Of a DNA stretch of 64,000 nt, positions 41,498-64,000 are shown piece after piece. Origin of the DNA: Strigamia acuminata (Eukaryota). A program made the translations under genes and the position numbers. The stretch covers positions 9,052,001-9,116,000 of the forward strand of contig OX442314.1 in the NCBI GenBank assembly GCA_949358305.1, given 5' to 3'. Under the pieces are notes generated by a model. The model was not told where the DNA came from and did no database searches. It worked only from the letters and a program-made list of their open reading frames with translations. Within the stretch, counting starts at the first letter, position 1, and each line of letters begins with the position of its first letter.

Positions 41498-42169
41498 TGT
41501 TACGAATCAACTTAGATGTTTAATTGATTTGATCTGAATTTACGCGCAAGGTGATGTTAGCGCAAATCAGCGGGCAAAGTTCGTAGATTTACTCTGTTTG
41601 TGCCATCGTCATATGCGGATATCGGACGGTGAATAAACCTAACTCGCTGTAACACACATTATTTATATTCGACGGGCTCAATCTCACGTTGTGGGTCTTT
41701 ACGTTTAAAAAGAATGAGTATGCGCAGTGATATTCGTATGCGGGTGGGCATAGGATGTCACAGGCATGCGAAGGGATAAAAGGTGGGCAAAAAGAGGCGC
41801 TATTAAGTGTTAAATTAGAAGGGGCGCGTGTTAAAGCGCAAAATAAAGATTGACAAACTCAATTCAATCTAAGAGGTGTTAACTCGTTGAAAGAGGTATG
41901 AGAAGTGTGGATTATGGATAAAAGTAGCGACCAGGTAAACATGAGTCATGTGACCAGGTCGATTGGAGTGGGTGAGGGGGTGGAAGGTATAAAATAAGGT
42001 TAATTGTTGGAAATAATAAGATGCGCGCAATGAGGCTGCGCATATATTTAGAGATGATTCATCAATGTTAGATGAAAAGAAAGATTGGGAAAAAATAAGA
42101 AAACTTAAGATTGGGTCAGTCTAAGTTAGAAATGAATAAAAAAGAAGGGTGGGTAACCTGCCCGTGACA
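41498..42169 (-). repeat. Element Y 3' LTR
   Basis: Appears identical to 54848-55519. Confidence 0.97.
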
Positions 42170-42180
42170 TCCCTCCCCCC
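42170..42180 (-). other. Polypurine tract of Y
   Basis: GGGGGGAGGGA immediately before 3' LTR on minus strand. Confidence 0.9.
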
Positions 42181-43553
42181 TTAGGCTTTTATTATTCGAG
42201 ATTTATCGAAGAGAATAAAAGGATAAGAGACAAGGAAAGTCATACAATAATAATGCGCTATGCGCAAAAACTATACAAATTCTCAAAAAATAAATTAAAT
42301 AAATTAAACAACAAAAAAGAATGATGCGCGTCTGCGCAAAGACTTAACAACTTTGTCAAAAATAATGCACGTGGTGCAAAAACTTAACAACTTTGTCAAA
42401 ATAATAAACAAAAGTTAAACAATACCAAATTAAATATCAAAAATCAATTAGATTATTAGAGACAGAGAATTAATAAATCACCATGGCTTTTGAAAATAAA
42501 TTTAAACTAAGATTTTTGTAAAGTCACAATGGTAAATTTTAAATCATTCTACTCGAAATCACAAGACGAACAGGGACGACACAAGGAGGGCGAACACTAA
42601 ACCTAAAGGGGCCGACGATACCTAGGACGGACGAGAGTCTATACACTTTACCCAAACAATTTATAAAATAAAAATTTTAAACACTTTTACTTTTTTGTAT
42701 AAACAAACTTCTGCTTTCTGTATAAAAATCATCGAATAAACAATTTTAAATTAAACAAAAATAAAGAGCCGACACATGAGAATTATCAAGAATCAGGTTG
42801 GGATTTATTAATATCAAATTGGGTATTTATGTTATGGTAGGATGCGCGTAATTGCGCAAAACAAATACAAAATAAAGGTAAGGTACAAAATTATGCAACC
42901 TGCATAAGGTAAGTATGATTTCAGATTAATTAGGAACTTTTAAATGGATGCGCGAAACTTTGCGCAAGGATAATTTAGGTTATTAATTCTATGAATGAAA
43001 TGGAAAATAGAAACATATAAAATATTATAAAACATAACAAATACCCGCGCGCACAATACTACTCGTATTGCCACGGAATTAAATATGTTGATCAGAAAAT
43101 ATCACAAAATTAAATGAAGGGTCAAAAAAGTATCACAATAATCTTGATTAAATGCTAAATATCCATAGAAAAAACATTCATTAAATAAATGAAAACATTG
43201 AATACTGACTTGAATCATTCCAGAATAATTGCGCTAAAAATAACAATGGAAATAAAAATTAAACGAAATTAAATTCCTAAGCTTCGGAAGAAATTATCAT
43301 AATTAAATGAAGATAATTCTGGAATGATTATAGCACAAAAAAAATATCAAAATCATTAAACTAGAATAAATATTTCAATAATATGACTAGAAAATTATCG
43401 AAATCATAATTGCACTTAAATAAAATATAATTGTAGTACTAAAAATCTAATTGTCCGATTCTAAAGCACTAAAAACGTAAAAATAATTAAATAAAAATAT
43501 AAATTATCAGTGAGGATTATCACAATAGAAAACTTGCGCAAAAATAATAACAT

Positions 43554-43916
43554 TTATGATGAAACACTAATAATAATTATTTGTTCTTCAAATCGACACA
43601 TTACCGCTGCCCAAGCTCGTTCCATCAAGTCCTCCAACTCGAGAGATGTTTTACGGAGCGCCTCATCAATGGAATCGCATGGCGGAACGGAAAAATGATG
43701 AAGATTTAAAGATGATAAAGTTTTGTGGATACCATGTAGATATTGGAATGCAGGCCGGCCCAAACTCAACGCACAAATGCGGAGATGTTTTATTAGGGCA
43801 TTTACCAGAGATCCACGATCTGGCGGCGCATTTTGGACACAATTAGAGATGAAAATATGATGAAAACACAAAATAATGATGAATGGTAGGTTGAAGTGCG
43901 CACAAAGTCTTCGCAA
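43554..43916 (-). CDS. Possible small ORF4 of Y (120 aa, non-ATG start)
   Basis: Open frame in an otherwise AT-rich 3' region; no recognisable motif. Confidence 0.2.
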   Translation of the reverse strand: MRRLCAHFNLPFIIILCFHHIFISNCVQNAPPDRGSLVNALIKHLRICALSLGRPAFQYLHGIHKTLSSLNLHHFSVPPCDSIDEALRKTSLELEDLMERAWAAVMCRFEEQIIIISVSS

Positions 43917-44050
43917 ATCACCAGGATCCTCGTATCAAGTCCTTCAACTCAACGCCGAAGCGGAGGAATTTTACGAAACGCCCATTGATGTGATCTCCTG
44001 ACTTCAATTTGCAAAAAACTTGCGCACAAAGTCACGTTTAGGATTGTTGT

Positions 44051-46393: not shown

Positions 46394-47130
46394 AGAACAA
46401 ATAATACGCTTGACAAACGATACTCACAATTATCAAGCGCAACAACACGAACGCGCACAGAACGAAACAAACAACGAGGACTAAAGAATATTCCTAGGAA
46501 TGTAACGAGTCGTAAAACTTTGCTTCGAGAAGCTTCGATGAACGATTGAAAACTCGCACATGTAATAAAGTCGGGTTCGAGGTTAAACACTAACTAATTG
46601 CAATTGAAGGGCGACATTCCGTGTTGGAATTCGGAAGTTAACGAAGGTTGTCTTCGCTCAAAACTCTTGTTTTAAAGTGATTAAATAAGGATGGTGAGAT
46701 AAACAAGTAATAATTCAGAACACAGAATATTAATTTAAATAAAGTGCGCATAAATTATATTGATTGAATAATTTAAATGAATTGTGGAAATAGCCACGTG
46801 CTATTGTTTAGAGGTTAATTGGCGTCGCGCACTCTGGTGACACAAATAGTCCCTGATTGAAATGGACTTAGCCATTTTCGAGTGACCGAATATGAACATA
46901 AAATACATAACACAAAACATTAAATATAAAATATAAAGAAAACATAAAATAACATAAAACATAAAAATTAGGATGAATAAATTTAAAATAAAGGGAAAAA
47001 TAGTTTTTAAACAAAATAGGTAGTAAAGATAGATTTACACCGGATTACACTTGGTTTTTTTTTGTTTTTTTTGTTGTTTCGTTTGTGTTTTCCCTTTTTT
47101 TTTTTATTTAGCTTAAAAAATAGAAGAAAA

Positions 47131-50100
47131 TTACTTAAATGAAAGAAAATAGGCAGAAAAAATATCTAAAGTGTTGACAGCAAAAATTTCAACATGTTTA
47201 TCAATAATTTCAACGTCTTTTAAAGTTAAAAAGTTGGCCTCGGCAAAAAACCAATGTCGCAATTCCACGACATTATAAGGCTGGGTTTTTTGGCCGTTTT
47301 CATCCATTAGGATTACTGTATTGGGGCCCACCAATCTATGTATAATATATACACCTTCAGTCCGTTGGCGTAAACCTGCTGCGAATTGTTTATCGGCAGA
47401 TGAAGGTTGCCGATTGCGCAAAGTTACCCAGTCGCCAGGACGGAAGTCATGGGGGCGCCGTTTTAAATCGAACCATTTTTTGTGTCGAATTTGGGACTCG
47501 CGCAAGTTGTTAATCGCGCTTTCTCGCATTCTACGCATATGTTCGTGCAAGTTTTCAGCTTCCACGGGCGGCAACGGTTCTCCGTCATCCGTGTCGCTAT
47601 CCAGGTCGCCCGGAAATCGAGCTTCCTGGCCTGTTACCATTTTAAAGGGTGAATACTTTAAAGAAATTTGATACGCTGAATTAATCGCGAGCACGAAATA
47701 GCCAATGTTGACGTCCCATCTAGTATGGTCATCATCAATATATGCTAATATACAGTTCTTTAATGATTGGTTAAGCCTTTCCGCAATATTACCTTGCGGG
47801 TGGTATGCGGCGGTATATCTATTTATTGCGCCAAGTTGCTGGATTTGGCTACGAAATTCTGGTGAGCGAAAAGCAGGCGCATTATCGCTGATAATTATTT
47901 TGGGAAAACCCCATCTTTTGCAGAATTTCTGAATTTGTTTCACCGTAGTGGCTATATTTGAGTTTTCGGTTAGACGTACGTCTAACCATCGGCTAGCAGA
48001 GTCGACCATCACAAAGGCATAGCAATGTCCCTCTGTGGATCGAGGTTTCTTGCCGTAATAGTCGATGTAGATAGCGGAGAAAAGATGGCGCGATCTGGAC
48101 ATTATCATTTTTCCATATGGGAGCCTGTTAAGGGGTTTAGCTCTTTGACACGCTTCGCAAACCTGTATCCATGTTCGAATATCTTCGCGCATTTTTGGCC
48201 AAAATACGCGCGATTTAATGCGATGGAGTGTTCGTTCTTGCCCCATATGTCCAACTACGGGAGGATAGTGCATTGCGCGGAAATATCTTTCTCTGAGTTC
48301 AAATGGGAGATATATTTGGCGCCTCTTTCTAATTTCATTAATATGGACAGGAGGGAAGCGACATAACATCTCTTTATACATGCCGAAATCTTGCGCGTCA
48401 GCCACAATTTTAGCAGCTTCGTCCGGATCAAGTGGTAACATTTGGGCAGTTAAATAAAATATCAACTCACGCGACCAGGGATCCTGTCTTTGCGCAGCAA
48501 TGATTTCAGCAGCAGTAGGCAACAGCTCGAACGGAGGATGTTCGATTGGTGGATCGTGCTCCAATTCGGCTTGCTTCTCTGCTTCAGTCCTTGAATCTTC
48601 AATTACTGTCCTTTCTCGTCGCGGACGCAATCTCGACGGAGTTCTTTGCGCTGATGCTGGAGGCGCAGAATAATTCCTTGTTGGTGGTGACATGTCACGA
48701 ATGGGTCCAAAACTGTCCTCCGATGATGCAGAGTCAGAATCCGGGTCCGAAGTATATCCCTCTGGCCTTTGCTGTCCTGATGGTCCCGCCGCATCATCAT
48801 ACATTCTTGGTTCAGAAGGTTGACGCGGAGAAATGACAGGAAAATCAGTGATAGGAATTGAAGGAGTTGGGGAAGGAGTTGGTAAATCTGGAATTTCAGG
48901 AGAAGGTCTTGGAATGGGCCTTCGATGGCTATCGGATTGAATTATTGGTGCAGGAACTCCAGTTATGCGACGGAAATTTCGTCGTATTTTATCCACCAAA
49001 GTTCCAGGTGTCGGCAATTGTGATGGTGCCGAAGCAGTCTTTTTTCTAAAACTAGACGGATTTATTGGCGCAGGAATTCTGGTTGGAATAATTGCCGAAG
49101 GAGGAATGGAACTAGGAATAGGAGTGGATATTGGAGTTGCAGGAGGGGTAGGAATAGGTAAGGGTGGTGGAATTAAAACTGATTTAGATTTGGGTTTCAC
49201 CACATGGGAAGGAATAGCGGATTTACGTCGCACTGCCTTCAACTTTCCTACTTGCTGTGATTTCAATAACTTTGGAAATGTCCACTTTTTAATAGTTCCC
49301 GCATACCTGGGTGGTAGCCATGGTGGTGATTTAGGAATCAAAGATGGATCCTTTAATCTAGCCCGAGTTCGTGTGGCTATTGCTCGTTTAGCATGAGGAG
49401 ATAAAATTGGTATAATATCAATTTTACGTGGTCTTCCTCGTTTCTTTATCAGAATTGGGATTAAAGAGCGCTGTCGGCGGGTTCGTAAAGGCACTGAAAC
49501 ACGAACTGGTGATAAATTAGGAGTTCTCACTTGTGAGGTTGGTTGCGCAACTGGAATTGATGCATTTGGTGTTGCAGTTGGTTGCACAATTGGCGTTAGT
49601 GCAACTGGAGGGATTGTAACCGGCGGTGCCCTCGTTGGAGGAGTAGCTACGCCAGTAGAAGATGGAATTTGCGCACCCGAAGTCGGCGCATTTCCAGTCA
49701 CTTTCCCTTTACCAGTTGGTCGAGGAATAAGAGATTTTTTCTTATTTTTCTTCTTAGTCGGTGAAGATGCTGCAATGAGAGGCACTTTTTTAAATGTAGA
49801 TTTAAACAACTTTCGAAACTGCAAATTAATGTCTTTTGGCAATTCCTTGATGATATTAAGTGCCGGCCACTCGTTGCAATCATCAAAATAGGCAAGGTAA
49901 CATGCCTCGTCGACCTCCGGGCTATCATCCTCATCATCGACTTCAGGTGGGTCGACAGGAGCTCGACTTAGTGCATCCGCTACCTTATTTTTGCATCCTG
50001 AACAGTGCAAAAACGTGAATTTATAATCACTTAACGATAGCACCCAACGGGCCAAACGTCCAGTTGGTTCCCTTTGCTGAAATAACCACTTAAGAGATTG

Positions 50101-52827
50101 ATGGTCGCTCTCGAGGTAGAATGGCATCATCTCGAGGTATGCACGAAAGCGTTTGACACCCCAAACCGCGGCCAAACATTCGATTTCGGTTACTTTATAG
50201 TTCTTTTCAGCGCTGTTTAATGCGCGAGAGGCAAATGCGATTGGAATTCTCACACCTTCATCGTTAAGTTGCATTAAAGCAGCACCTAATCCAGAATAAC
50301 TAGCATCGGTCTGCAGTATAAATGGTTTTTTCCAACTGGGAAAACGTCTTTTCAGTGTTGGTATCGCAATCTGGTCTTTCAGATATTCGAACGCCAATTG
50401 CTGCGCATCTGTCCAAATCCAAGTTGCGTCCTTTTTAAGCAATGGTCGGAAAACTTCGCTAATTTTAGAAAAATTTGCAATGAATGATTGGTAATAACCT
50501 ACCATGCCCTTAAATCGTTGTAATTCGCGCAAATTGGTTGGCGCAGGATAATTTTGAATAGCAACCACTTTCTTTGGATTTGGTGTAATCTGGCCAGATT
50601 CCACGATGTGTCCCAAAACCTCGAGTCTTTTTTGACAAAGCTCAGTCTTGTTGGCGTTCATGGTGAATCCAGCGTTGAACAATTCCTCTAAAACGAGGCG
50701 CAAATGTTGCACGTGTTCCTCGAAAGTTCGGCTAAAAATAATCACGTCATCAATATACACAAATACAAATTTGTAAAGATATTTCGCAAGAGTCTTATTC
50801 ATCGCTCGTTGGAGGGTAGCGGGTCCGTTGATAGGTCCGAAAGGCATGCGCACATATTCGAATAAACCTCGATGTGTTATAAAAGCTAAATACCGTTCGT
50901 CACCTTTGCGCACGCCGATCTGATGGAAAGCTTCGCGTCCGTCGATTATCGAAAACCAATGCGCACCTCCCAAATATGCAAAGATGTTATCAATGTCCGG
51001 AAGGGGGTAAACGTCCGGAATTGTTTGCGCATTAATGGGGCGAAAATCCATAGCAGTTCTCCATTCACCTGTCTTCTTGGGTACGACGACTGGAGCAACA
51101 GCGCAATCACTTTGGGATCGCCGAATAATACCTTGCTGCAGCTTTTTGTCGATATATTTATCAATTATCGCCTTTTTCGCAGGGTTTACCGGGCGCACAG
51201 GGACATGAATTGGACGAAAATCCGGTTTCAGGTTCACCTCGTACTCGGTGTTATTACATAAACCAATTTCTTCGCGAAAGATTTGCGAAATGGGCTGCAA
51301 TGTTTTGATTAATAGTTTTATCTGTGGCACTGTCAATTGGTTCCACAACTGGTGGTAAATCCAATCTAAATCGGTCGGATCTCCACTAGGTTGGTACTGC
51401 AAAAAATTAATGTCATTAATGTTCATTTTAGAGTTATTCCCACCATTGTCAGGTTGCGCAATCGAAAAGATGTTGATTTTCGACTCCTTCTTGGCATTGA
51501 TGTCTTTAGCACGTTGCGCAACGAGTTGTTTGGCAATTGGACGAATAACATTGATTTTTCGTCGTAAACGTCGTAATCGTCGGAACTGACTCAAAGTTAA
51601 TTTACGTAAAATTGTCTTTTTTAAATTGGAGGAAATTTTAGAAGTTTCTTTCCTCTTTGGGGACCAAATATTCGACCATTTGCGTTGCGCACGATGTCGA
51701 ACTTGTTTAACTCGATACTGCGCATCGTCATGTGGATACTCGAATATTTCTTGTTGCAAGGGTCTATGCGCCAGGAGGAGGCAGTTAATTTCACTCACCG
51801 GATCCGGTTTCCTTAGTATTTTCGTCGGAACGATCTCACTAATGGCCGCCGGTGGGTTGGATGGATCCTGCGTTTCTTCCGGCGCAAATGGCAAAACCAG
51901 AATTGACTCTGACTTTTTTGCTTCTTCATAAGTCATGAATTTGCGAATCTCATTTGAGCCCACCATGCTCCACTGTTGTCTCGCATGGTCGATGTCGATT
52001 CCGGCCGCTGTGCAGAAATCACGTCCAAGGAGCATATCCATTTTGGCATCGGGTAAAACCATGCAAATGAATTTTATTATGCCTATTGGGGCGCGCAAAG
52101 CGAGCTGCATCGATTTGGTGGAATCCACTATGTCACCAGACGCGACCTGCACCCGCTCGTGGAGATTCACAAAGTCCAAACCCATTTTTTCGTGTAGTTG
52201 TTGGAACACGTCCTCACTCATTACACACGTTTGTGCGCCTGAGTCTAGAAGCGCAGTACAAGCTACATTAGCCCAGGAAATCTTTACGCAAGGTGCTTTC
52301 TTGCACAAACGATCCCCGCGCGTTATCTCAATGATGGGTTCTTGAGTTTCTTTAAGTTCCTCTGGCGTTAACATTACGAAAGATACCTTCATAGGAGAGA
52401 TCACTTCCTTTGGAGCCTCAGTCGTTGTTGCACTGGAAGTAGACTTAATTATTGGTAAAGTTTTAGTAATTTTACTCACTATTGTCACTTTCGGGTTTTT
52501 CTTCGAAATTACAGGTTGCAAATCTGTTAATTTCGGCAATTCGTCCTTTACAGCTTCAGGAACGGCAGTCTGCAGATCTGACGCCTTTGTAGCTGAGGTG
52601 ATGATGGAAGATGATGAAGAAATAACACTACTTACAGGTTTATACTCTGAAAGAGTAATAACAGTAGGAGATGTTGTTGAATTAACCTGTGAAGGATCGT
52701 CCTCTTTCAAGTTAATTAAAGGTGAAGCGCGTCGTTTGGATTTCAGACGTTTTGCGCGAAGGGCCGGTCGACTCATTTGCGGCCTGGTTCCACCGGCTTC
52801 CCGAACTTCAGGCCTTCGGAGTTTTCC
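47131..52827 (-). CDS. pol: Element Y Pol (protease, RT, RNase H, long linker, integrase)
   Basis: LLDSGA; YIDD; LQTDAS; HHCC (H..GHMG..CEAC); YIDY/SDNA/AER DDE. Confidence 0.97.
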   Translation of the reverse strand, partial: GKLRRPEVREAGGTRPQMSRPALRAKRLKSKRRASPLINLKEDDPSQVNSTTSPTVITLSEYKPVSSVISSSSSIITSATKASDLQTAVPEAVKDELPKLTDLQPVISKKNPKVTIVSKITKTLPIIKSTSSATTTEAPKEVISPMKVSFVMLTPEELKETQEPIIEITRGDRLCKKAPCVKISWANVACTALLDSGAQTCVMSEDVFQQLHEKMGLDFVNLHERVQVASGDIVDSTKSMQLALRAPIGIIKFICMVLPDAKMDMLLGRDFCTAAGIDIDHARQQWSMVGSNEIRKFMTYEEAKKSESILVLPFAPEETQDPSNPPAAISEIVPTKILRKPDPVSEINCLLLAHRPLQQEIFEYPHDDAQYRVKQVRHRAQRKWSNIWSPKRKETSKISSNLKKTILRKLTLSQFRRLRRLRRKINVIRPIAKQLVAQRAKDINAKKESKINIFSIAQPDNGGNNSKMNINDINFLQYQPSGDPTDLDWIYHQLWNQLTVPQIKLLIKTLQPISQIFREEIGLCNNTEYEVNLKPDFRPIHVPVRPVNPAKKAIIDKYIDKKLQQGIIRRSQSDCAVAPVVVPKKTGEWRTAMDFRPINAQTIPDVYPLPDIDNIFAYLGGAHWFSIIDGREAFHQIGVRKGDERYLAFITHRGLFEYVRMPFGPINGPATLQRAMNKTLAKYLYKFVFVYIDDVIIFSRTFEEHVQHLRLVLEELFNAGFTMNANKTELCQKRLEVLGHIVESGQITPNPKKVVAIQNYPAPTNLRELQRFKGMVGYYQSFIANFSKISEVFRPLLKKDATWIWTDAQQLAFEYLKDQIAIPTLKRRFPSWKKPFILQTDASYSGLGAALMQLNDEGVRIPIAFASRALNSAEKNYKVTEIECLAAVWGVKRFRAYLEMMPFYLESDHQSLKWLFQQREPTGRLARWVLSLSDYKFTFLHCSGCKNKVADALSRAPVDPPEVDDEDDSPEVDEACYLAYFDDCNEWPALNIIKELPKDINLQFRKLFKSTFKKVPLIAASSPTKKKNKKKSLIPRPTGKGKVTGNAPTSGAQIPSSTGVATPPTRAPPVTIPPVALTPIVQPTATPNASIPVAQPTSQVRTPNLSPVRVSVPLRTRRQRSLIPILIKKRGRPRKIDIIPILSPHAKRAIATRTRARLKDPSLIPKSPPWLPPRYAGTIKKWTFPKLLKSQQVGKLKAVRRKSAIPSHVVKPKSKSVLIPPPLPIPTPPATPISTPIPSSIPPSAIIPTRIPAPINPSSFRKKTASAPSQLPTPGTLVDKIRRNFRRITGVPAPIIQSDSHRRPIPRPSPEIPDLPTPSPTPSIPITDFPVISPRQPSEPRMYDDAAGPSGQQRPEGYTSDPDSDSASSEDSFGPIRDMSPPTRNYSAPPASAQRTPSRLRPRRERTVIEDSRTEAEKQAELEHDPPIEHPPFELLPTAAEIIAAQRQDPWSRELIFYLTAQMLPLDPDEAAKIVADAQDFGMYKEMLCRFPPVHINEIRKRRQIYLPFELRERYFRAMHYPPVVGHMGQERTLHRIKSRVFWPKMREDIRTWIQVCEACQRAKPLNRLPYGKMIMSRSRHLFSAIYIDYYGKKPRSTEGHCYAFVMVDSASRWLDVRLTENSNIATTVKQIQKFCKRWGFPKIIISDNAPAFRSPEFRSQIQQLGAINRYTAAYHPQGNIAERLNQSLKNCILAYIDDDHTRWDVNIGYFVLAINSAYQISLKYSPFKMVTGQEARFPGDLDSDTDDGEPLPPVEAENLHEHMRRMRESAINNLRESQIRHKKWFDLKRRPHDFRPGDWVTLRNRQPSSADKQFAAGLRQRTEGVYIIHRLVGPNTVILMDENGQKTQPYNVVELRHWFFAEANFLTLKDVEIIDKHVEIFAVNTLDIFSAYFLSFK

Positions 52828-54743
52828 GGTCTCCTAAATGGCTGGTAACATATGGGGCACAACGGATGCCAAGTTGCTGTATCTACCAAATACCACCAAT
52901 CCTTCGGTGTTTTCCTCCAGGCTGTGCCTTTCTCAGGACATTTGACAGTTAATGGTGGTTTTGGCGCTGGTGGAAACGTGACAATTGACGTAGAGCACAC
53001 ATGGTCCTTTGGGACGTCTGCTGGAGGTGTCAGAGTAGCTAAATTTATTTTAATTGTTGCCTTCTGAGCCGCCTCGGCGACTGTGCTCTTCTTAATTTCA
53101 GGTTCAGCATCCGTGTCGCTGCTACTACTACTCGTATCGGGTTCCTGCGCAGGTGGAGATTGTTCTGGTCTCGCCTGCACTGCAGCTAACTCGATTAAGA
53201 ATTGTTTTCGATACCTCGCAAAACGTTTGACGTCCTGGGACACGAGAGATTTGACATCATCGTCTCCTTTGGACTTCTCCGCAGCCTTGAGCACTGTGGG
53301 GCGTTGCGCATCACGCAGAGAGGGCATTCGTTGATCAGCCATACCCAGATCTTTGTATTCGTCTGCTCGAATGGTGTCCAGCTGTAGACGATTGTCGATG
53401 TCATTACCTCTTTGGATCGCCTCGTCCAGCGAGTTTACGTTCCATGCGCGCAAGAGATGAACAACTTCGGTTTGCATCATGTTCTGAGCTTTCTCCCATT
53501 GGAGCTCTGGGTCGGTATATCCTGCAACCTGAAGATAATATACAATCTCACTTAAAAATGACATCGTAGACTCTCCATTTCGTTGCTTTCGCTTGGATAG
53601 CTTCACATTGGCCGCTGCCGAATTCATGGCGAAAGCTCGTCGAAATAATATCTCAAAGTCCTCCCATGTTTTTGGTTTTGGTTTTAGTGATAACCACCAT
53701 CGCTGCGCTCTTCCACGCGTTGCTTGAATGACAAATACTTTTAAATATTCATCCACCGGGGCCTGCATAGAATACATGTGCGCGTACAAATGCGCAAGAA
53801 AAAGATTAATGTAATCAAGATCGGCTTTATCTGGATCAAACAAAGGTGGTTTTCCAGGCTTGAAACAATTTTTATCTTTACTTGCGTGTTGCGCTCTTAC
53901 TGACGGCAGTGACAACTTTGCCTTGGTGTCGGATCTATCCCGAGGATATCCCATCTTGGAGTATAGCATCGAGCTCATTAAATCTCGATTTGCTCGTGTT
54001 GAATGGTCCAAATGAGCAGATTCCTGTGATGGAGCCTGGGTATAGATCGTTGCCATCGTCGGCATTGGCGGCGTGGTTGTTGTGTAAACAATTTGCGCAG
54101 CCTGCGCGGACATTTTCGTCTGCTGGCCTCGATGTTCAACTTCCCGTTGCTGGTGCGGACATGCTGTGGGAAGTCCTAAATCATATGGTGCCGAGGTGCC
54201 TTTAACTCTTATGGAGCCATGCGAGGATCCACCGTCTAGAGACCGTGCGGTCCCTGTTCGTAGAGAGCGAGGGCCTTGTTGGAATATTTCGCGAATCTCA
54301 TTTACTAGACCTCGTGTTTGAGCATAGTATTGGTTGCGCAAGTCGGACATCAGCAAACCTTCCGTATTTAATGTGACGGGGTCTACTAATGCTCTAGGCT
54401 GAGTCGAATCGAAAAAAGATGGCGCCGCCAAAAAGTTAGCGGGTGTTGACGTGGCAAAATTTACTTGAGGTTGCGCTCGTGAATTTGCAACAGCCATTGT
54501 CATGATATGATTTGATGGGGCTGGCTGTTGTTGCGCAATACTCACAAGCGTTTCCTGTTGTTCGATACGACTTCTTCGTAATTGGTCGTGTTGCTGCCAC
54601 TCTCGAAATTCCCTTTCCTCTTCCCGGCGAACACCACTCCTCCGTTCGGACTGTTGCCATTCCTGCTCCATTTCTAACTCACTGAAATCAAATGGATCGC
54701 GCGTGACGGGACGAATTCCGTCACCTCCCAACTGTCTCGACAT
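52773..54743 (-). CDS. gag: Element Y Gag
   Basis: GRAQRWW...TWEDFEILFRRAF...RKQRNGES retrotransposon capsid signature; first ORF after PBS. Confidence 0.9.
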   Translation of the reverse strand: MSRQLGGDGIRPVTRDPFDFSELEMEQEWQQSERRSGVRREEEREFREWQQHDQLRRSRIEQQETLVSIAQQQPAPSNHIMTMAVANSRAQPQVNFATSTPANFLAAPSFFDSTQPRALVDPVTLNTEGLLMSDLRNQYYAQTRGLVNEIREIFQQGPRSLRTGTARSLDGGSSHGSIRVKGTSAPYDLGLPTACPHQQREVEHRGQQTKMSAQAAQIVYTTTTPPMPTMATIYTQAPSQESAHLDHSTRANRDLMSSMLYSKMGYPRDRSDTKAKLSLPSVRAQHASKDKNCFKPGKPPLFDPDKADLDYINLFLAHLYAHMYSMQAPVDEYLKVFVIQATRGRAQRWWLSLKPKPKTWEDFEILFRRAFAMNSAAANVKLSKRKQRNGESTMSFLSEIVYYLQVAGYTDPELQWEKAQNMMQTEVVHLLRAWNVNSLDEAIQRGNDIDNRLQLDTIRADEYKDLGMADQRMPSLRDAQRPTVLKAAEKSKGDDDVKSLVSQDVKRFARYRKQFLIELAAVQARPEQSPPAQEPDTSSSSSDTDAEPEIKKSTVAEAAQKATIKINLATLTPPADVPKDHVCSTSIVTFPPAPKPPLTVKCPEKGTAWRKTPKDWWYLVDTATWHPLCPICYQPFRRPENSEGLKFGKPVEPGRK

Positions 54744-54825
54744 GATGAAGAAAATGTGAAATGATTAAATAAATAACTCAAAAAACTAACCTTTTCGCGC
54801 GTTTAAGCCTTATAGGTGAGAGCGA

Positions 54826-54843
54826 ATCCTGTCAGGCTCGCCA
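54826..54843 (-). other. Primer binding site of Y (probably tRNA-Arg)
   Basis: TGGCGAGCCTGACAGGAT, 4 nt from LTR; resembles complement of the tRNA-Arg(ACG) 3' end from memory. Confidence 0.75.
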
Positions 54844-54847
54844 TGTT

Positions 54848-55519
54848 TGTTACGAATCAACTTAGATGTTTAATTGATTTGATCTGAATTTACGCGCAAG
54901 GTGATGTTAGCGCAAATCAGCGGGCAAAGTTCGTAGATTTACTCTGTTTGTGCCATCGTCATATGCGGATATCGGACGGTGAATAAACCTAACTCGCTGT
55001 AACACACATTATTTATATTCGACGGGCTCAATCTCACGTTGTGGGTCTTTACGTTTAAAAAGAATGAGTATGCGCAGTGATATTCGTATGCGGGTGGGCA
55101 TAGGATGTCACAGGCATGCGAAGGGATAAAAGGTGGGCAAAAAGAGGCGCTATTAAGTGTTAAATTAGAAGGGGCGCGTGTTAAAGCGCAAAATAAAGAT
55201 TGACAAACTCAATTCAATCTAAGAGGTGTTAACTCGTTGAAAGAGGTATGAGAAGTGTGGATTATGGATAAAAGTAGCGACCAGGTAAACATGAGTCATG
55301 TGACCAGGTCGATTGGAGTGGGTGAGGGGGTGGAAGGTATAAAATAAGGTTAATTGTTGGAAATAATAAGATGCGCGCAATGAGGCTGCGCATATATTTA
55401 GAGATGATTCATCAATGTTAGATGAAAAGAAAGATTGGGAAAAAATAAGAAAACTTAAGATTGGGTCAGTCTAAGTTAGAAATGAATAAAAAAGAAGGGT
55501 GGGTAACCTGCCCGTGACA
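54848..55519 (-). repeat. Element Y 5' LTR
   Basis: Direct repeat of 41498-42169 at offset 13350. Confidence 0.97.
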
Positions 55520-58500
55520 GTTGTTTCACTGTTGTAGAAACGTCTGCCTTTTCGGTGAGTCTCACGTCCACCCAGCGACTGGCTGCATCCACCATTACGA
55601 ACGCGTAGCAGTGTCCGCCAGTGGACTTCAACTTTTTCCCGAAGTAGTCGACGTAAATGGTCCGAAACAACCGTCTCGGTTTCGCGGTCTCCATCTCGCC
55701 ATACGGTAGCCTCCGCTCGACCTTCGCCCTTTGACAAGGTTCACAAACTTTAATCCAATTTGCTACATCTTTTTTCATCCCTGGCCAAAACACACGGGTT
55801 TTTAGACGCATCAGTGTTTTCTCGATCCCGAGATGGCCAGAGGTTGGTGGGAAATGTAAGCAATGAAAATACTTGTAACGAAGGGATTGAGGGAGGTAAA
55901 TACGACGCGTAGGAGCTCGTTGACCGATCTTAGTTGGTGGAAACTTGCAGAGCAGACCACGGTGTAACGCCATGTCCACTGCTCGTTTCTTAAGTTCTGC
56001 AGCTTCCATCTCACCTGGCGGCAGAGACCCTGAATTGAGATATAATATAAGTCCCTTAGACCATTCATCGGCTAGTTGGGCTTCTTTAACGGCTTTCTGT
56101 GTTGGGAGAATCTCAATTGTCGGATGATCCGCCGGAAGTGAGTAGAAACTCTCGTCAGACGAGTGCTCAGAGTGGTCAAGCAACTCCGCATCGATAGAGG
56201 GTGTTGGTGAAACCAAATCTCGCCGTGGTTGGGTCCTCGGTGACAAGTCCCGTGGAATCACAGGAATTTGAAACTCCTCGGAGTCCGTGTCTCCCGGCAG
56301 CTCCTCACTGTCCAACGACATTTCGCTGGCCTCCGAGCCCGTAGAGCGATCGAGGATGATAGGAGTTTTCTTTTTCGGTCTTCCGACCGGTCGCTTCTCC
56401 ACAACCTTTTTGGGTCGCCCCCGTTTTCTCTTCTCAGGAACGTCAATTGGCAAAGAAACTGCACCTGACTCTTCTTCCGAAGTTGGTGGAATAGGACGCG
56501 TTACGGGTAAAGATTTAGGCTGCGTCATGTCCCCGCTGGCCGGAGTCTTCCGCGGACGACCTCTTTTCCTTTTTACAGGAACGTCTTCCTTAGGCAAAGA
56601 CACCGCCACAGATTCTTCGTCCGACATTGGCAGAGTAGGCTGTGCTCCCGGCAAGGGTCCCGCCTGAGTCGGCCCCTTTGCAATGGGATTTTTCCGTGGA
56701 CGTCCCGGTCCTCTTTTTGGAGGGGGCTCGTCCTCCACCGGACATACGTCCACTGCCGTAGCCGACAAGGCGTTCAATCTCGCCAGGAACGCACGTTTCT
56801 GCTTACGCATTGTTACCGCTCTAACGATTTTACAGTTGGGTGATTTCCAATGAGTCACCTCATCTAACTCTTCCATTTTGGGTACTGGCCAGTCGTTGAA
56901 ATCATCGAAGTACACACAGTAGTACGTGTCATCCAACGCTGGACAGTCTTCGTCATCCAGCTCGATCGGCGGGTCAACTGGCGCCCGACTCAACGCATCG
57001 GCGACCCGATTCTTCGTACCACTACAGTGGAGAACTGTGAATCGGTATTCCGACAGCGAAAGAATCCATCGCGCCAACCGGCCCTTTGGCTCTCGCTGGG
57101 AAAACAGCCATACCAAGGACTTGTGATCACTCTCTAGATAGAAATCCATCAACTCGAGGTATGCTCTAAAGCGTTTGACGGCCCAGACGGCGGCCAGGCA
57201 CTCAATCTCCGTCGTATGGTAATTCTTCTCTGCACTGTTTAGGGCCCGCGATGCAAAGGCAATTGGGACGCGTACGCCGTCATTGTTGATCTGCATCAAC
57301 GCAGCCCCTAGACCAGAATAACTCGCATCGGTTTGTAAGATGTAAGGCTTACTCCAGTCCGGGAAATTCCTGTGCAAGGTAGATAACGACACTTGATTTT
57401 TGAGATACTCGAAAGCCGCCTGATGCGCCGCCGTCCAGTTCCATGGCGCATTCTTACGCATAAGAACTCGAAAGACCTCACAAGTCTTGGAATATCCTGG
57501 AAAGAACGACGAGTAGTACCCGATCATGCCCTTGAAGCGTTGTAATTCCTTCAAGTTAGTGGGGGCCGGGTACTTGCTGATCGCGTCGGTCTTCTTTGGG
57601 TTAGGACGGATAAGTCCCTCCTCGACAATATGTCCGAGCACCTCAAGACTTGTCTTGCACAACTCCGTTTTTCCCGCGTTCATTGTGAACCCCGCTTGGT
57701 CGAGCAAAGTGAGCACTTTTTGCAGGTGAGTCACATGCTCTTCGAAGGTCTTACTAAACACGATTATGTCGTCGATGTACACAAAGACAAACTTGTAGAG
57801 ATGCTCAGCTAGAGTCAAATTCATGGCCCTTTGTAAGGTGGCAGGGCCATTGATCGGACCGAAGGGCATACGCGTATACTCAAAGAGTCCCCTGTGGGTG
57901 ATAAACGCGAGATATCGTTCATCTCCAGGTCGGACCCCTATTTGGTGGAACGCTTCCCTTCCGTCGATGATGGAAAACCATTTTGCCCCACCCAGATATG
58001 CAAAGATGTTGTCGATATCTGGGAGGGGGTAAACATCAGGCAAAGTTTGGGAATTGATCGGCCTAAAATCCATTGCGCAGCGCCAGCGTCCGTCCTTTTT
58101 GGGGACAACTACGGGCGCCACGGCGCAGTCGCTTTTGGAGCGCTTGATTACTCCTTGCGCCAACTTTTGGTCGATATAGGCATCGATTATTTCCCTTTTT
58201 GCCGGATTCACCGGACGTACCGGGACATGAATAGGTCGGAAGTCAGGCTTCAGATTCACCTCAAACTGTGTGTTATTACAGAGCCCCAGTTCCTCACGAA
58301 AGATATGAGCAACTGGTTTCAACGCATCCATTAAGTGATTAATGCGTTTTGGCTCCAACTGATTACACAGCTGATCATACACCCAAGCGAGGTTGGTAGG
58401 ATCTCTGTTTGGGATGTATTGGACGAAATTAACATCATGCTGTCTTGGAGTACCTTCCGCCATTTGACAAGCAGAAGAGGTCTCCGCGTTGTCGACGACA

Positions 58501-59708
58501 TTTCTCTCTCCACTCGGAGAATCTGCAGTCTCAACCAACGTTCGTTTAGCCACCGCTTTAACTCTTGCTTTACGCAACTTAATGGCTCGACGCATCTGAC
58601 TCAAACACATGGCCTTTTTCCCAGGTTTACGCGTAACTCGCACGATGTGCTTACGTGCGGTTTTTTCACGTCTCTTAGGTGACCATATGAAGGTCCATTT
58701 TTGAGCGTCTTGCCCTCTCCGAGCAACAACCACTTTGACAATACAAGGATTGTCTTCGTGTGGAGGCTCAAATAACTCCACTTCAAAATTACGTTTGCCC
58801 AGCAAGACGCAGTTAGCTTCACTAATTGGTGGTTTTGTGACGACCACAGGTTTCTCCTCTGCCTTCTCCTCCTTTGCAGGAATCTCGGGGGTCAGTTCCC
58901 GCTCCTTTTGGCCGACAAGCTTGACGGGCACCGCCGTTTCCTCTGGCTTGGGGACCGGCGGATTTCGCAAAGCCGGAAGGTTGTACAGAGGGGGCCCCTT
59001 AACCGCAATTCCCTTCGGAAGGGAAGGTTGTTCCTTTGTTAAAGGGAATAAGATCACTGGATCAGATGCCCTAGCTTGCTCTTCCGTGAGGAAGGGATGC
59101 CTCGTGCCATCCCCTAAGAGGAACCAGTATTCGTTGGCGTGGTCTGTACAAAGACCAACTGCCTTGCAGAAATCCAGCCCCAAGAGGAGCTCCTGAGACC
59201 CCTCCTCTATGATGAGGCAAGTAAAGCAAACTACCGCCGTAGGAGCACGGACGGCTAGTTGTGCACAGCCAACCACTTTGGTAATATGATTGTCGGCTGT
59301 CCGGATGGTCTCGTCCAGTTTCACCATTTCTATGCCTATCTCTTTTGCGAGTTTTTCATACAATGCCATGGTCATTATGCACGTCTGTGCACCGCTGTCC
59401 ATCATTGCAATGAACTCGATATTGATCCAGGCGATTTTAACAAAGGCCGCGTCTCGCCGACAACGGTCCTTCAACCCGATTATCAATTTCGGCTCTTTGG
59501 AAGCCAAAAATTCGGGTGGTGACAACATAATGAAATTTGTCATTTTCGGCTTAGAAGCCGCTAACGCGGTGGTACTGGTCTTCTGCAACGCAGGGGGTAC
59601 CATCCAACCGCTTGTGCTATCTAAAGCTTCCAACGTCCGACTTATTTGGGTTTCGGGTCCGCTGCCTTTCCGTTGGATGGTTTGGACAGTGGACCCTGGT
59701 CGTTTCCC
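55520..59708 (-). CDS. pol: Element X Pol (interrupted in integrase)
   Basis: MMDSGA; YIDD; LQTDAS; four GRP AT-hook-like motifs; HHCC; first DDE Asp. Confidence 0.95.
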
Positions 59709-61711
59709 GGAAACTGCCAGGGCTTAAAGCAGTGGGGACATAATGCGATGCGTTTTTCAATATCACGCATGTACCATCTGTCCTTCCGATTGCGCACCCA
59801 CTCAGCTCCGGGTGGCAACGGTGTTATTGGGGGGTTAGCCGTATTGGCGAAGGTGTGGGCAACATGTCCACATTGTGCCGCCCCCACAGCCGGAGTAGGT
59901 TTATTCTCCGGAACCTTTACAGACGCGTTTATTTGCGGCTCTGGGGCTCTCGACGGTTCAACACTAACAACGGACTGTCCAGCAACACTCTGCAGGTCCT
60001 CACCCGTTGCCCCAACCAACTCAGCCAACGCAACCAATTTCCTTTTATCAAACTGGAAGCGACCAGGCGTAGGCTTTTCTGCTGTCTTTGTTTTGGCAGG
60101 CTCTACCACCTTTTTGGTCGCTTTAACAGCTTGCTTATCCTTATCCTTGGATTGAGGTCGAGGCACCGGACCTCTTCTCACTCCGCGCTCATCGAATTTA
60201 TACTGCTGAAGAGAACGCAACGCCAATTCGCTGTCAGCCTCTTGCCCCATCTCTATGGCCTGCGACATGAAGCGGACTCCGTACCGAGTCATTGCATCCG
60301 TTATCTGCGGTTGAAGGCGATGTTTCGCCATATTCCATTGTTGCCTATCCCCCCGAATACCTATCATCTCGAGGTAACGACTGATTTCACATAGAAACTC
60401 AGCCGTATCATCCCCTACTTCCTGCCAGGCATCCGTCAGGAAGACCGTTGCTTCGGCCTCCTTGAGGGAATAACGTTTCCGGAAACGCATAACAAATTCA
60501 TCCCATGTTTTTGGTTTATGGCGTAAGTGCAAGTACCAATTTAAGGGCTTCCCACACAGCGCCAACGGAATGAACAAGTCAATATACGCTTCATCCGGAA
60601 TGCGCGTCATGATATAATGGGCGCGCAATTTCGCTAGGAATCTTTCGACCGCATTATAGGATTGGTCATCCTCATCAAATATCGGCACATGTTCCGACCT
60701 CACATGCGACAAGTCATATTGATTATATCGCGTCTGCGGCCGCTGCCGGGGCGTCGGCGTTACCGCTGCTGCTTGGGCGTCCCGCGCCCGTTGCAAACGC
60801 GTATTTACCGAATCCCCCCGCGCAGCCGCTGCGCGATCAACACTTGCTGTATCCGGCAAGCTAACAGCTGTCGACTTTGAGCGTATAATACTCCTCATCA
60901 CCTCACTGTTACATTGTGAGGGCGTACCCATTCGAGACCCCGCGCGAGCTGTCACGTCCGATGGTCTCTCATTTGAAGGTAAACGAGGATTTACATCCCC
61001 TTGTAACCTTCCTACTACTGCTATTCCTTGCCTGTTCAACTCGCTAGGCGTCAGAATGCGTGAAGACTGAACACTTCCCCCAGGTTCCCTCTGACCGTCA
61101 GAACGAGGTCCATCACCAGGCAAAGGGTTATGAGGTCTTTGCTGAGCTGGTGGAATTACCTCCTCCTCGGGCTGTACAGCTAATGCCACGATTTCGGCCC
61201 TAATCACTTGTCTCACCCCCACCAGAGTCTCATCTCTATAATTTCCCAGTCGGTAGTCAACATGCTGACCAAACTGGTTTAATGCTCGGACCATACGCTC
61301 ATTCATGGCCAATTCCGCATTTTGCAAATACGGCAGCCATTCTGGAGGCCGTTGACCAGCCTCTTCTTCCTCCTCCTCGACGTTATCCTCAGGACTACTC
61401 CTTTGTTGAGGTGGCGCCGAAGGATTTGGTTGCACGGGCGTTAAAAGATCCGAAGCAGACGCGTCGACATGGGACTCACGCGTAGAAGGAGTAGTGTCCG
61501 GGCAGTAGGTACTATCCGTTGAAGTGGATTTATCTTCTACCTTTACTCGTGTGACATTCCCGTGTGGTCGCAAAAGGTACGGCGGCCCACCGCCTCTTGC
61601 CACGGGCAAGCCATACTCTGAGCGGGTTCTCGGAGGATGCGCATCAAGGGGACGCCGTGGAGTTTCATCACACAAGCGCTCCCCAACTCTACGCATCCAG
61701 CTAGGCCACAC
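59642..61711 (-). CDS. gag: Element X Gag
   Basis: GKPLNWY...KTWDEFVMRFRKRY...WQEVGD capsid signature; homologous to Y Gag. Confidence 0.9.
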   Translation of the reverse strand: MWPSWMRRVGERLCDETPRRPLDAHPPRTRSEYGLPVARGGGPPYLLRPHGNVTRVKVEDKSTSTDSTYCPDTTPSTRESHVDASASDLLTPVQPNPSAPPQQRSSPEDNVEEEEEEAGQRPPEWLPYLQNAELAMNERMVRALNQFGQHVDYRLGNYRDETLVGVRQVIRAEIVALAVQPEEEVIPPAQQRPHNPLPGDGPRSDGQREPGGSVQSSRILTPSELNRQGIAVVGRLQGDVNPRLPSNERPSDVTARAGSRMGTPSQCNSEVMRSIIRSKSTAVSLPDTASVDRAAAARGDSVNTRLQRARDAQAAAVTPTPRQRPQTRYNQYDLSHVRSEHVPIFDEDDQSYNAVERFLAKLRAHYIMTRIPDEAYIDLFIPLALCGKPLNWYLHLRHKPKTWDEFVMRFRKRYSLKEAEATVFLTDAWQEVGDDTAEFLCEISRYLEMIGIRGDRQQWNMAKHRLQPQITDAMTRYGVRFMSQAIEMGQEADSELALRSLQQYKFDERGVRRGPVPRPQSKDKDKQAVKATKKVVEPAKTKTAEKPTPGRFQFDKRKLVALAELVGATGEDLQSVAGQSVVSVEPSRAPEPQINASVKVPENKPTPAVGAAQCGHVAHTFANTANPPITPLPPGAEWVRNRKDRWYMRDIEKRIALCPHCFKPWQFPGNDQGPLSKPSNGKAADPKPK

Positions 61712-61908
61712 ACTCTTGGAGTTATCCTCTTTAGGATGCCCTCTTCTGCCATTGCGTCAACTCAAGCAATTTAGCAGCAAAACTCAAATGGATGATCCAC
61801 TCTAAAAAAGGCGAGTAACGATACCACTCGACCTTTGTTTTCCGAATAATGATTACTAGCCCACTGGAAACAGTTTATACGGCTAGCAATCGAAAAGCTA
61901 CGGGATAT

Positions 61909-61926
61909 TCCCGGGTTTCGGCACCA
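61909..61926 (-). other. Primer binding site of X (tRNA-Phe)
   Basis: Plus strand TCCCGGGTTTCGGCACCA equals the metazoan tRNA-Phe(GAA) 3' end with CCA; 2 nt from TGTGATGG LTR edge. Confidence 0.9.
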
Positions 61927-61928
61927 AG

Positions 61929-63060
61929 TGTGATGGATCGCGAGTCTAGGTGGTTTAGAAGCGTTTGAAAGACGCCGCGAAACAGTAAATTCACACACCC
62001 TGGTAGTTTCGTACCTGCCGTAAATCGAATGTGCGCAGGAAGTGGCAGCTAACACACTCTCAGATACTGTGCACCACACTAATATTTATTTGTGGCCGGG
62101 TATCCCGAGCTGTAAAACTCGGGGACAGAATGTCCGGTAGTCGCGTCTGAACCAAAACCCAACGCGTGACCCGCCAACAATCGTGTTTTCACACGAAGGC
62201 AAACGAATGCACGTCTCGTAGTGGCTCATAAGCAACCCCAAACTGTCGAGTTTGAACGAGGATGGGCGATTTACTCGTGCTTATACAACGCACGGGCCCT
62301 AAACCCAACTCTAAACCTGACTTAATGCTTAATTAAAGCTAAAGCCCGAATGGCAGGCGGCTAAACTAAGCTAAACGCACGCGCAAGCGAAATGAAAGAC
62401 ACAAACTTCGAACTTATGGCCAACAAATCCTGTTTGGCCTTGGATAACGCGTCACGGCGATAAAACATGAACAAAAAGGAGCAGAAAAACAAATGGTGAA
62501 CGAGTGGTGTAAAACCGTGAGTTAACACGCGAAATGAAATGAAAGCCTGAAACCGTGTTGCAGAATTCCAGGGCGAATGCAAAGCTACAAGTGAGCTTCG
62601 GAGTTAAACCTCAGCCATGAGCACCGGCTCCAAAGGAGCACCTACGCGTTCGGGATACTGAGATCAACTGAAGAAAAAGAGGAAAAATAGGGTGAGAGGT
62701 AAACTTGGACTCAACCAAGCTTGACCAATCACGGAAGAGTCAAGAGCCAATCACCACTGTCGGTGCATACTGATGAGTATGACTGATGACGACGCGTGAT
62801 GACCAGAATAGATATGCAAAGAAGTTTGCATCCAAATCATAAACGAAAGAGAAAAAACTAGGAGTAGATAAGAGAAAAGTGAGAGAATGAAGAGAAAGTT
62901 AGGAGTGAGTAAGGGATAAGATAGATAGAAAATGAGGAAAACTCACGAATGAACATAAACAATACAACAACACAAGGTAAAGACAAATTAAGGTTTAATA
63001 CAACACAAACACGGGTTAACAATGCGTAAACTATACGCGTAGGAAACACGGGCCGTGACA
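61929..63060 (-). repeat. Element X 5' LTR (1132 bp)
   Basis: Termini TGTCACGG (63060, minus) and TGTGATGG (61929, plus); adjacent PBS. Confidence 0.85.
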
Positions 63061-63344
63061 AAGAAATTTCAATAAATATCAAGAAATTTCAATAAATATC
63101 AAGAAATTTCAATAAATATCAAGAAATTTCAATAAATATCAAGAAATTTCAATAAATATCAAGAAATTTCAATAAATATCAAGAAATTTCAATAAATATC
63201 AAGAAATTTCAATAAATATCAAGAAATTTCAATAAATATCAAGAAATTTCAATAAATATCAAGAAATTTCAATAAATATCAAGAAATTTCAATAAATATC
63301 AAGAAATTTCAATAAATATCAAGAAATTTCAATAAATATCAAGA
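63061..63344. repeat. Perfect 20-bp minisatellite (AAGAAATTTCAATAAATATC)x14 + AAGA
   Basis: Direct reading; no variants seen. Confidence 0.99.
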
Positions 63345-64000
63345 TGTCACGGCCCGTGTTTCCTACGCGTACAGTTTACGCATTGTTAACCCGTGTTTGT
63401 TCCTATTAAACCTAATTTTGTCATCTTCTTACCTTTGTTGTTTTGTTTGTGTTTGATTCGTGAGTTTTCCTCATTTTCCTTCTATCTTATCTCTTACTCT
63501 CTCCTAACTTTCTCTTCATTCTCTCACTTTTCTCTTATCTACTCCTAGTTTTTCTTCTTTAGTTTATGATTTGGATGCAAACTTCTTTGCATATCTATTC
63601 TGGTCATCACGCGTCGTCATCAGTCATACTCATCAGTATGCACCGACAGTGGTGATTGGCTCTTGACTCTTCCGTGATTGGTCAGGCTTGGTTGAGTCCA
63701 AGTTTACCTCTCACCCTATTTTTCCTTTTTTGCTTCAGTTGATCTCAGTATCCCGAACGCGTAGGTGCTCCTTTGGAGCCAGTGCTCATGGCTGAGGTTT
63801 AACTCCGAAGCTCACTCGTGGCTTTGCTTTCGCCCTGGAATTCTGCAACACGGTTTCAGGCTTTCATTTCATTTCGCGTGTTAACTCACGGTTTTACACC
63901 ACTCGTTCACCATTTGTTTTCCTGCTCCTTTTTGTTCATGTTTTATCGCCGTGACGCGTTATCCAAGGCCAAACAGGATTTGTTGGCCATAAGTTTGAAG
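63345..64000 (+). mobile_element. Second X-family LTR in opposite orientation (runs off window)
   Basis: Starts TGTCACGGCCCGTG; diverged reverse complement of ~62405-63060. Confidence 0.9.

What the first reader, a model, noticed from the sequence alone, without database searches (positions are those of the whole stretch)
56365..56730. Four AT-hook motifs in a long linker between RNase H and integrase of element X
Seen: KRGPGRPRK, KRKRGRPRK, KRKRGRPKK and KRPVGRPKKK within a ~300-aa low-complexity insert. Known: the GRP core flanked by K/R binds AT-rich minor grooves; Gypsy targeting modules are usually C-terminal chromodomains. Inference: an N-terminal integrase tether that could steer integration to AT-rich DNA such as the 63061-63344 satellite.
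Basis: partly seen in the sequence, partly recalled or inferred. Interest (0 to 1): 0.75.

Follow-up and report, generated by a model that had tools for sequence, protein, structure and literature searches.

The report
AT-hook arm on Gypsy retrotransposon integrase
A jumping gene carries four short AT-hook motifs in an extra arm in front of its integrase, and it and a sister copy sit at the same position of an AT-rich tandem repeat, so the arm likely helps the element grip AT-rich DNA when it inserts, though binding and targeting are untested.

Summary
Confirmed. Four GRP(R/K) motifs lie in frame in the Pol of Gypsy element X, in a 302-aa spacer between RNase H and the first integrase helix (27-96 aa in tree neighbours). 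They pass Pfam's AT_hook cut-off as a fragment (19.3 vs 17.4 bits); two have the full RGRP core. Hooks 1-3 sit in ~47-aa tandem units, so they are not independent. Signs of selection are modest: hooks 2 and 3 differ by six synonymous codons and one Arg/Lys change (p=0.07). All three known clade members have hooks here (X 4, nested element Y 1, a centipede record 2); 0 of 120 RT-selected relatives do. Similar hooks occur at the integrase C-tail of 15 other Gypsy proteins, so this is a recurrent add-on. New here: X and an inverted sister LTR (95% identical) both abut the 85%-AT 20-mer array at the same four bases, AAGA (about 1 in 20 by chance). Against strict targeting: Y landed in coding DNA, only two junctions are known, and hooks can double as nuclear import signals. 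Best reading: a selected DNA-gripping integrase arm that biases insertion toward A/T tracts (0.45).

The parts
56691..56717 (-). AT-hook-like motif 1 (KRGPGRPRK; PGRP core)
56547..56573 (-). AT-hook 2 (KRKRGRPRK; RGRP core)
56406..56432 (-). AT-hook 3 (KRKRGRPKK; RGRP core); duplicate of the hook-2 unit
56367..56396 (-). AT-hook-like motif 4 (KRPVGRPKKK; VGRP core)
56271..56351 (-). Acidic, Ser-rich block right after the hooks; similar blocks follow the hooks in Y and P0171
56079..56984 (-). 302-aa RNase H-to-integrase spacer, Pro-rich and poor in aromatic residues (predicted disordered from composition)
56901..56927 (-). Hydrophobic patch upstream of the hooks, shared with Y; candidate protease site between RT-RH and integrase (inferred)
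55520..59723 (-). Pol of element X (protease, RT, RNase H, spacer, zinc finger, start of integrase core), interrupted by element Y
40765..41497 (-). Remainder of X's integrase beyond Y, cut off by a TTAA-ended inverted-repeat block
59642..61756 (-). gag ORF of X; pol lies in the -1 frame
61929..63060 (-). 5' LTR of X (inner boundary inferred from a CA end and the primer-binding site at about 61909-61926; no second X LTR in the window)
63061..63344 (+). Perfect 20-mer array (a dimer of related 10-mers), 85% AT, beginning and ending with AAGA
63345..64000 (+). LTR of sister element Z, inverted relative to X, 95% identical, runs off the window
41498..55519 (-). Nested paralogous element Y with identical 672-bp LTRs and a 4-bp target duplication GTTG
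49423..49446 (-). Single AT-hook (KKRGRPRK) in the 490-aa spacer of Y's Pol

Best explanation
Element X encodes four AT-hook motifs in a long insert between RNase H and integrase; the insert likely stays on the integrase as a disordered arm that would grip A/T tracts in the minor groove and bias, rather than dictate, insertion into AT-rich DNA such as the adjacent 20-mer array. Shown: the motifs, their position, their origin by tandem duplication, their presence in all three known clade members, and the two same-register LTR/array junctions. Inferred: (1) the viral-type protease cuts at the hydrophobic patch upstream of the hooks; (2) the hooks bind DNA, multivalently, on the 6- and 9-bp A/T tracts that repeat about every helical turn; (3) the same basic patches also serve nuclear import; (4) the acidic Ser block tunes binding; (5) the integrase core then cuts at the AAGA step between two tracts. 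It would work like the NLS-plus-two-AT-hook element of LEDGF/p75, but encoded by the element itself.
For: Pfam AT_hook above cut-off on the fragment. Hook 2 vs hook 3: 6 synonymous, 1 Arg/Lys and 2 identical of 9 codons, against 6, 10 and 9 of 25 codons in the rest of the unit; Fisher p=0.069, hand alignment. Of the 27 displayed pol differences among family copies 25 are synonymous, including the two that fall in hook cores. Hooks in the same spacer in 3 of 3 clade members although the X and Y spacers do not align better than shuffles (z=0.9). 0 of 120 RT-selected relatives and 0 of 150 representatives carry a linker hook. In 15 other Gypsy Pols hooks sit at the integrase C-tail, the place where chromoviruses carry their targeting chromodomain (PMC5053271, passage). 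X and Z both meet the array at AAGA in opposite orientation; with a 4-bp duplication as in Y this is one register out of 20. Y's own site is locally AT-rich: 68% over 20 bp a side, matched by 0.7% of windows of X pol (0.1-3.9% over four window sizes).
Against: No binding or localisation data. Only two LTR/array junctions, no genome-wide count, and neither X's nor Z's other end is in the window, so their target duplication is assumed from Y. Y, with one hook, inserted into coding DNA, and Y-type LTR ends have diverse flanks (agreement about 0.5). Two of the four hooks lack the RGR core that enters the minor groove (PMC11354804, passage). AT-hooks can be weak, secondary binders (MeCP2; PMC5028900, abstract) or act as an NLS (HMGA2; PMC1874589, abstract). 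The selection test is not significant at 0.05, and only 40 of 668 differences were displayed. One contig in run X3 joins across 56303-56932 with the letters between unknown, which may be a copy or relative without this arm. The cleavage site is a guess. A shared register could also come from ordinary local sequence preference of the integrase core (known for Drosophila errantiviruses; PMC5408687, passages) acting on an abundant satellite.
Confidence: 0.45

Rival explanations
1. The hooks are selected as nuclear import signals and general DNA/chromatin glue for the integration complex and do not steer it; X and Z lie in the array because it is a large, tolerant target and the integrase core prefers that step.
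For: Each motif is embedded in a K/R cluster; an HMGA2 hook is itself an NLS (PMC1874589 abstract); LEDGF hooks are described as non-specific DNA binders (PMC11354804 passage); hook number varies 1-4 in the clade; Y is outside the array; satellite arrays are invaded by many transposon types (10.64898/2026.09.17.752431 passages).
Against: An NLS does not need the GRP core, yet G, R and P are kept through synonymous changes; Y's site is locally AT-rich; same-register junctions.
Confidence: 0.35
2. The hooks act on the element's own nucleic acid (AT-rich parts of the cDNA or RNA), helping to assemble or compact the pre-integration complex, not on the target.
For: Y has a 73%-AT stretch next to its 3' LTR and a 60%-AT LTR; some AT-hooks bind RNA (PMC4615771, listing only); a LEDGF hook peptide improves intasome solubility and activity (PMC11354804 passage).
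Against: X's LTR is only 55% AT although X has most hooks; does not explain the array junctions.
Confidence: 0.12
3. The motifs are by-products of a Pro/Lys/Arg-rich linker that expanded by slippage, with no function.
For: Hooks 1-3 lie in tandem units; the spacer is low in complexity and differs in length twofold between X and Y.
Against: 0 of 100,000 shuffles reach three motifs; cores kept while flanks change; hooks in all three clade members; the same motif recurs at integrase ends elsewhere.
Confidence: 0.08

Closest known systems
Ty3/Gypsy (Metaviridae) LTR retrotransposons; nearest named relative P0171 (UniRef T1IQ84, centipede Strigamia maritima)
   Same: gag, protease-RT-RNase H-integrase order, TG..CA LTRs, primer-binding site, 4-bp target duplication; P0171 shares the integrase N-terminus (46-55% identity) and has two hooks in the same spacer.
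   Different: Spacer of 302 aa (X) and 490 aa (Y) against 27-96 aa in neighbours; all other relatives found are at most 45% identical in RT-RNase H.
Chromoviruses (Gypsy with a chromodomain at the integrase C-terminus)
   Same: An accessory module on integrase that can steer integration (PMC5053271 passage).
   Different: No chromodomain in Y's complete Pol or in the surviving X integrase; the module is N-terminal and would read DNA, not a histone mark.
LEDGF/p75 tether of HIV-1 integrase
   Same: NLS plus paired AT-hooks linked to an integrase, holding it on chromatin (PMC2275779 passages).
   Different: LEDGF is a host protein with a PWWP reader and binds integrase in trans; here the hooks are in the element's own polyprotein.
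HMGA proteins
   Same: Several hooks in a Pro-rich disordered chain; HMGA2 is enriched on AT-rich major satellite (PMC13192832 abstract). An acidic block after the hooks is also an HMGA feature (recalled, not from a call).
   Different: No sequence relationship tested beyond the motif; two of four hooks lack the RGR core; part of a Pol.
GRPR (AT-hook-like) motif of Tc1/mariner-type transposases
   Same: AT-hook motif in a transposon-encoded DDE recombinase (PMC13469147 passage).
   Different: Single motif between two helix-turn-helix units of a DNA transposase, not an array in a retrotransposon Pol.

Membership tests
Ty3/Gypsy LTR retrotransposon | Pol order protease-RT-RNase H-integrase | tested here: met
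Ty3/Gypsy LTR retrotransposon | LTRs with TG..CA ends, primer-binding site, target-site duplication | tested here: met
   Complete for Y (identical LTRs, GTTG duplication); for X only the 5' LTR and primer site survive in the window
AT-hook motif (PF02178) | GRP core flanked by Lys/Arg, score above Pfam cut-off | tested here: met
   19.3 bits vs 17.4 on the 136-aa fragment, three stretches; not reported on whole Pol
AT-hook motif (PF02178) | Central RGR that enters the minor groove | tested here: inconclusive
   Present in hooks 2 and 3, absent in 1 and 4 (definition from PMC11354804)
AT-hook motif (PF02178) | Selective binding of AT-rich DNA | not testable with these tools
   needs a binding assay
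Chromovirus | Chromodomain at integrase C-terminus | tested here: not met
   No chromo family at E up to 10 in Y's complete Pol or X's downstream piece; X's extreme tail is cut off
Satellite-targeting (centrophilic) retrotransposon | Genome-wide enrichment of young insertions in the satellite | tested here: inconclusive
   2 of 2 X-type LTR outer ends in the window abut the array; no genome is held, so no genome-wide count
Satellite-targeting (centrophilic) retrotransposon | The array is centromeric or a major satellite | not testable with these tools
   Only 284 bp of it are in the window; no other copy with up to 4 mismatches elsewhere in the window

The most novel reading that the evidence does not exclude
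The X family is a satellite-homing Gypsy retrotransposon that carries its own HMGA-like reader: four hooks on the integrase N-terminus read the helically phased A/T tracts of the 20-mer and set the catalytic core on one fixed step (AAGA), and hook number tunes how strongly a family homes. AT-hooks at either end of integrase would then be a third, convergently evolved class of self-encoded Gypsy targeting module beside chromodomains and host-factor-binding motifs.
Probability: 0.2. Interest if true: 0.8.

Novelty: new variant of a known kind. Interest (0 to 1): 0.5.

Why it matters
How retrotransposons find satellites and other gene-poor DNA is known for only a few elements. A DNA-reading arm encoded in Pol would be a simple, testable answer for an animal Gypsy lineage without a chromodomain, and the window supplies the reagents for a test: a four-hook and a one-hook paralogue and a candidate 20-bp target. 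The scattered occurrence of the same motif at both ends of unrelated Gypsy integrases suggests a recurrent module that my searches did not find described. If the hooks are only import signals the finding is a minor annotation.

Tried and rejected
AlphaFold model of the spacer and integrase N-half from a 3-row alignment: mean pLDDT 37.5 everywhere, also in folded domains, so it says nothing on disorder; no fold search run. ESM Atlas: best score 0.84, zinc-finger clusters only, no structure held. PDB sequence search: foamy-virus integrase and Ty3 match only the zinc finger and core, not the spacer. Representative search: best 150 hits 30-42% identical, many with several RT stretches, no close relative. 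No whole genome is held, so insertion sites could not be counted. No RNA holder listed. In one search no loose end at X's outer LTR end was among the 23 rows shown for runs X1-X3 (230 rows not shown); not used as evidence. The share of X-family ends that run into the array remains unmeasured. Rejected: that the X/array/Z arrangement is a fold-back artefact (arms are 95% identical, not 100%, and the array keeps one orientation); that X and Y form one clade with the other linker-hook carriers P0035 and P0044 (separate branches in the RT-RNase H tree, FastTree, midpoint root, no formal clade test); my recollection that Ginger transposases were reported with AT-hooks (0 occurrences of 'hook' in PMC2836005). 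Earlier scan notes held nothing on this genome or sequence.

Full report
Observation. The minus-strand ORF 55476-59723 is a Gypsy Pol with protease, RT, RNase H, zinc finger and the start of the integrase core. Four GRP(R/K) motifs lie in it at 56691-56717, 56547-56573, 56406-56432 and 56367-56396, exactly as reported. A six-frame scan of the window finds only one more such motif in a long ORF, in the Pol of the neighbouring element Y. None of 100,000 shuffles of the linker gave more than two. The excised fragment passes Pfam's AT_hook cut-off (19.3 vs 17.4 bits); the whole Pol does not report it. Hooks 2 and 3 have the RGR core that structural work places in the minor groove (PMC11354804, passages); hooks 1 and 4 do not.

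Anatomy. X runs from a 5' LTR at about 61929-63060 through gag (59642-61756) into pol in the -1 frame. Its integrase core is interrupted by element Y (41498-55519; identical 672-bp LTRs; GTTG duplicated on both sides) and the remainder (40765-41497) is cut off by a 31-kb block with terminal inverted repeats and TTAA ends. This copy of X is therefore dead and its 3' LTR is not in the window. Y is a paralogue (RT-RNase H 80% identical) with a complete Pol, no chromodomain and one hook. The insert can be placed: from the end of RNase H to the conserved QxxD helix that opens the integrase N-terminal region there are 302 aa in X and 490 in Y, against 27-96 aa in 11 tree neighbours where both anchors were found (of 17 examined; two more distant linker-hook carriers gave 191 or no value). 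A hydrophobic patch shared by X and Y lies upstream of the hooks; that the protease cuts there, leaving the arm on integrase, is inference (in yeast Ty3 the cut is just after RNase H; recalled). The X spacer is 15% Pro and 3% aromatic/Cys, basic around the hooks and acidic after them. The AlphaFold model was uninformative.

Selection. Hooks 1-3 lie in ~47-aa tandem units. Between units 2 and 3 the nine hook codons show six synonymous changes, one Arg/Lys change and two identities, while the other 25 codons show six, ten and nine (Fisher p=0.069; hand alignment). The family is held in three public runs from two studies, one of which may be the window's source. The hook region is covered in all three; 40 of 668 differences were displayed, 27 of them in pol, 25 synonymous, including both that fall in hook cores. 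A 3-base in-frame loss just after hook 4 is seen in all three runs, and one contig in X3 joins across the whole hook region with the letters between unknown. This is modest support for constraint, not proof.

Relatives. The closest relative found is P0171, a UniRef gene model from the centipede Strigamia maritima: 46-55% identical to X and Y over the integrase N-terminus, with two hooks in the same spacer. So 3 of 3 known clade members have hooks there (4, 1, 2), although the X and Y spacers align no better than shuffles (z=0.9; X/P0171 6.7, Y/P0171 9.6). The host is likely a related arthropod (inference). Outside the clade the feature is uncommon: 0 of 120 relatives picked by RT-RNase H carry a GRP[RKP][RK] motif anywhere, and 0 of 150 representatives carry one in the linker (spacing measurable in 101 of each; median RNase H-to-zinc-finger distance 104 and 81 aa, against 373 in X). 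But a query that contained the hooks pulled out 46 Gypsy Pols of which two have a hook in the same linker (P0035, P0044) and 15 have one to four at the integrase C-tail (this set is biased toward hooks and gives no frequency). In an RT-RNase H tree of 163 of 167 sequences, X+Y, P0035+P0044 and the tail carriers fall on separate branches (FastTree, midpoint root, P0171 lacks RT and is not in it). Four unchecked notes of this scan report hooks in the linker or tail of fungal chromoviruses; they are leads, not support. AT-hooks on Gypsy integrases thus look like a recurrent, convergent add-on.

Target. X's LTR ends directly at 63060 and the array starts with AAGA; the array ends with AAGA at 63344 and the LTR of a sister element Z starts at 63345 in the opposite orientation. 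X and Z LTRs are 95% identical (623 of 654) and the array keeps one orientation, so these are best read as two insertions. With a 4-bp duplication, as Y shows, both cut the same step of the 20-mer: 1 in 20 by chance if sites were uniform. The unit is a dimer of related 10-mers with 6- and 9-bp A/T tracts, about one per helical turn, the kind of substrate multi-hook proteins prefer (recalled). Against this: two junctions only, the far ends of X and Z are not in view, no genome is held, and local preference of the core alone can give fixed target words (PMC5408687, passages). Y, with one hook, inserted into X's coding DNA, though at a locally AT-rich spot (68% over 20 bp a side; 0.7% of X pol windows are as rich, 0.1-3.9% over four sizes; single event, comparison leaves out the downstream integrase piece).

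Mechanism. Most likely (0.45) the insert is a disordered N-terminal arm of integrase whose hooks hold the integration complex on A/T-tract DNA and bias site choice, with nuclear import as a second use. The nearest working model is the NLS plus two AT-hooks of LEDGF/p75, which hold HIV-1 integrase on chromatin (PMC2275779, passages), here built into the element. The main rival (0.35) is import and general affinity without steering: an HMGA2 hook is an NLS (PMC1874589, abstract) and MeCP2 hooks are secondary binders (PMC5028900, abstract). Binding of the element's own nucleic acid (0.12) and neutrality (0.08) are less likely.

What is known. Chromodomains at the integrase C-terminus steer chromoviruses (PMC5053271, passage); satellites are invaded by many transposon types and Tal1 targets CENH3 through its integrase C-terminus (10.64898/2026.09.17.752431, passages; no mention of 'hook'; its supplementary satellite lists, which could say whether this 20-mer is centromeric, were not seen). 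A GRPR motif is standard in Tc1/mariner-type transposases (PMC13469147, passage). I found no paper describing AT-hooks in a Gypsy Pol in seven full-text searches (judged from listings, plus passages of the papers named here); the library lacks most subscription journals, and the original AT-hook survey was not held.

Verdict. Observation confirmed; interpretation partly supported and strengthened by the same-register junctions, but untested. A new variant of a known kind (accessory tether on a Gypsy integrase). Interest 0.5; the satellite-homing reading has probability about 0.2 and would deserve 0.8.

Noticed in passing
window 10005-40764: A 31-kb block with 325-bp terminal inverted repeats (98% identical) and TTAA at both ends, filled with GC-rich 11/53-bp tandem repeats and internal duplications; looks like a giant non-coding piggyBac-type or fold-back element (label recalled). 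It cuts X's integrase on one side but abuts unrelated sequence on the other; four internal ORFs tested had no Pfam hit.
   Followed up: partly
window 44051-46423 (-): Element Y carries an extra 790-aa sense ORF between pol and the 3' LTR, with only a weak CxxCxGxG zinc-ribbon hit and a 30-aa tandem repeat; no envelope family hit.
   Followed up: partly
window 9061-9441 (-) and 9642-10004 (+): A thymidine kinase fragment (Pfam TK, E 2e-38) and a MYND-finger fragment face away from each other across a 200-N gap.
   Followed up: no
window 63053-63060, 55512-55519, 61909-61926, about 54826-54843: X and Y LTRs share their first 8 bases (TGTCACGG) but are otherwise unrelated, and their primer-binding sites differ; X's resembles a tRNA-Phe 3' end (recalled, not tested).
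   Followed up: no
window 42170-43600: Y's 3' non-coding region is 73% AT, against 51% for the window.
   Followed up: no
P0006, P0010, P0012, P0023-P0028, P0031, P0033, P0038, P0045, P0046, P0048: Fifteen unrelated Gypsy Pols end in one to four AT-hooks after the integrase core, a layout worth its own survey.
   Followed up: partly
window about 58590-58690 (-), Pol aa 345-390; same region in Y: Both X and Y also have a long, very basic insert between protease and RT, a second candidate nucleic-acid-binding or import segment.
   Followed up: no
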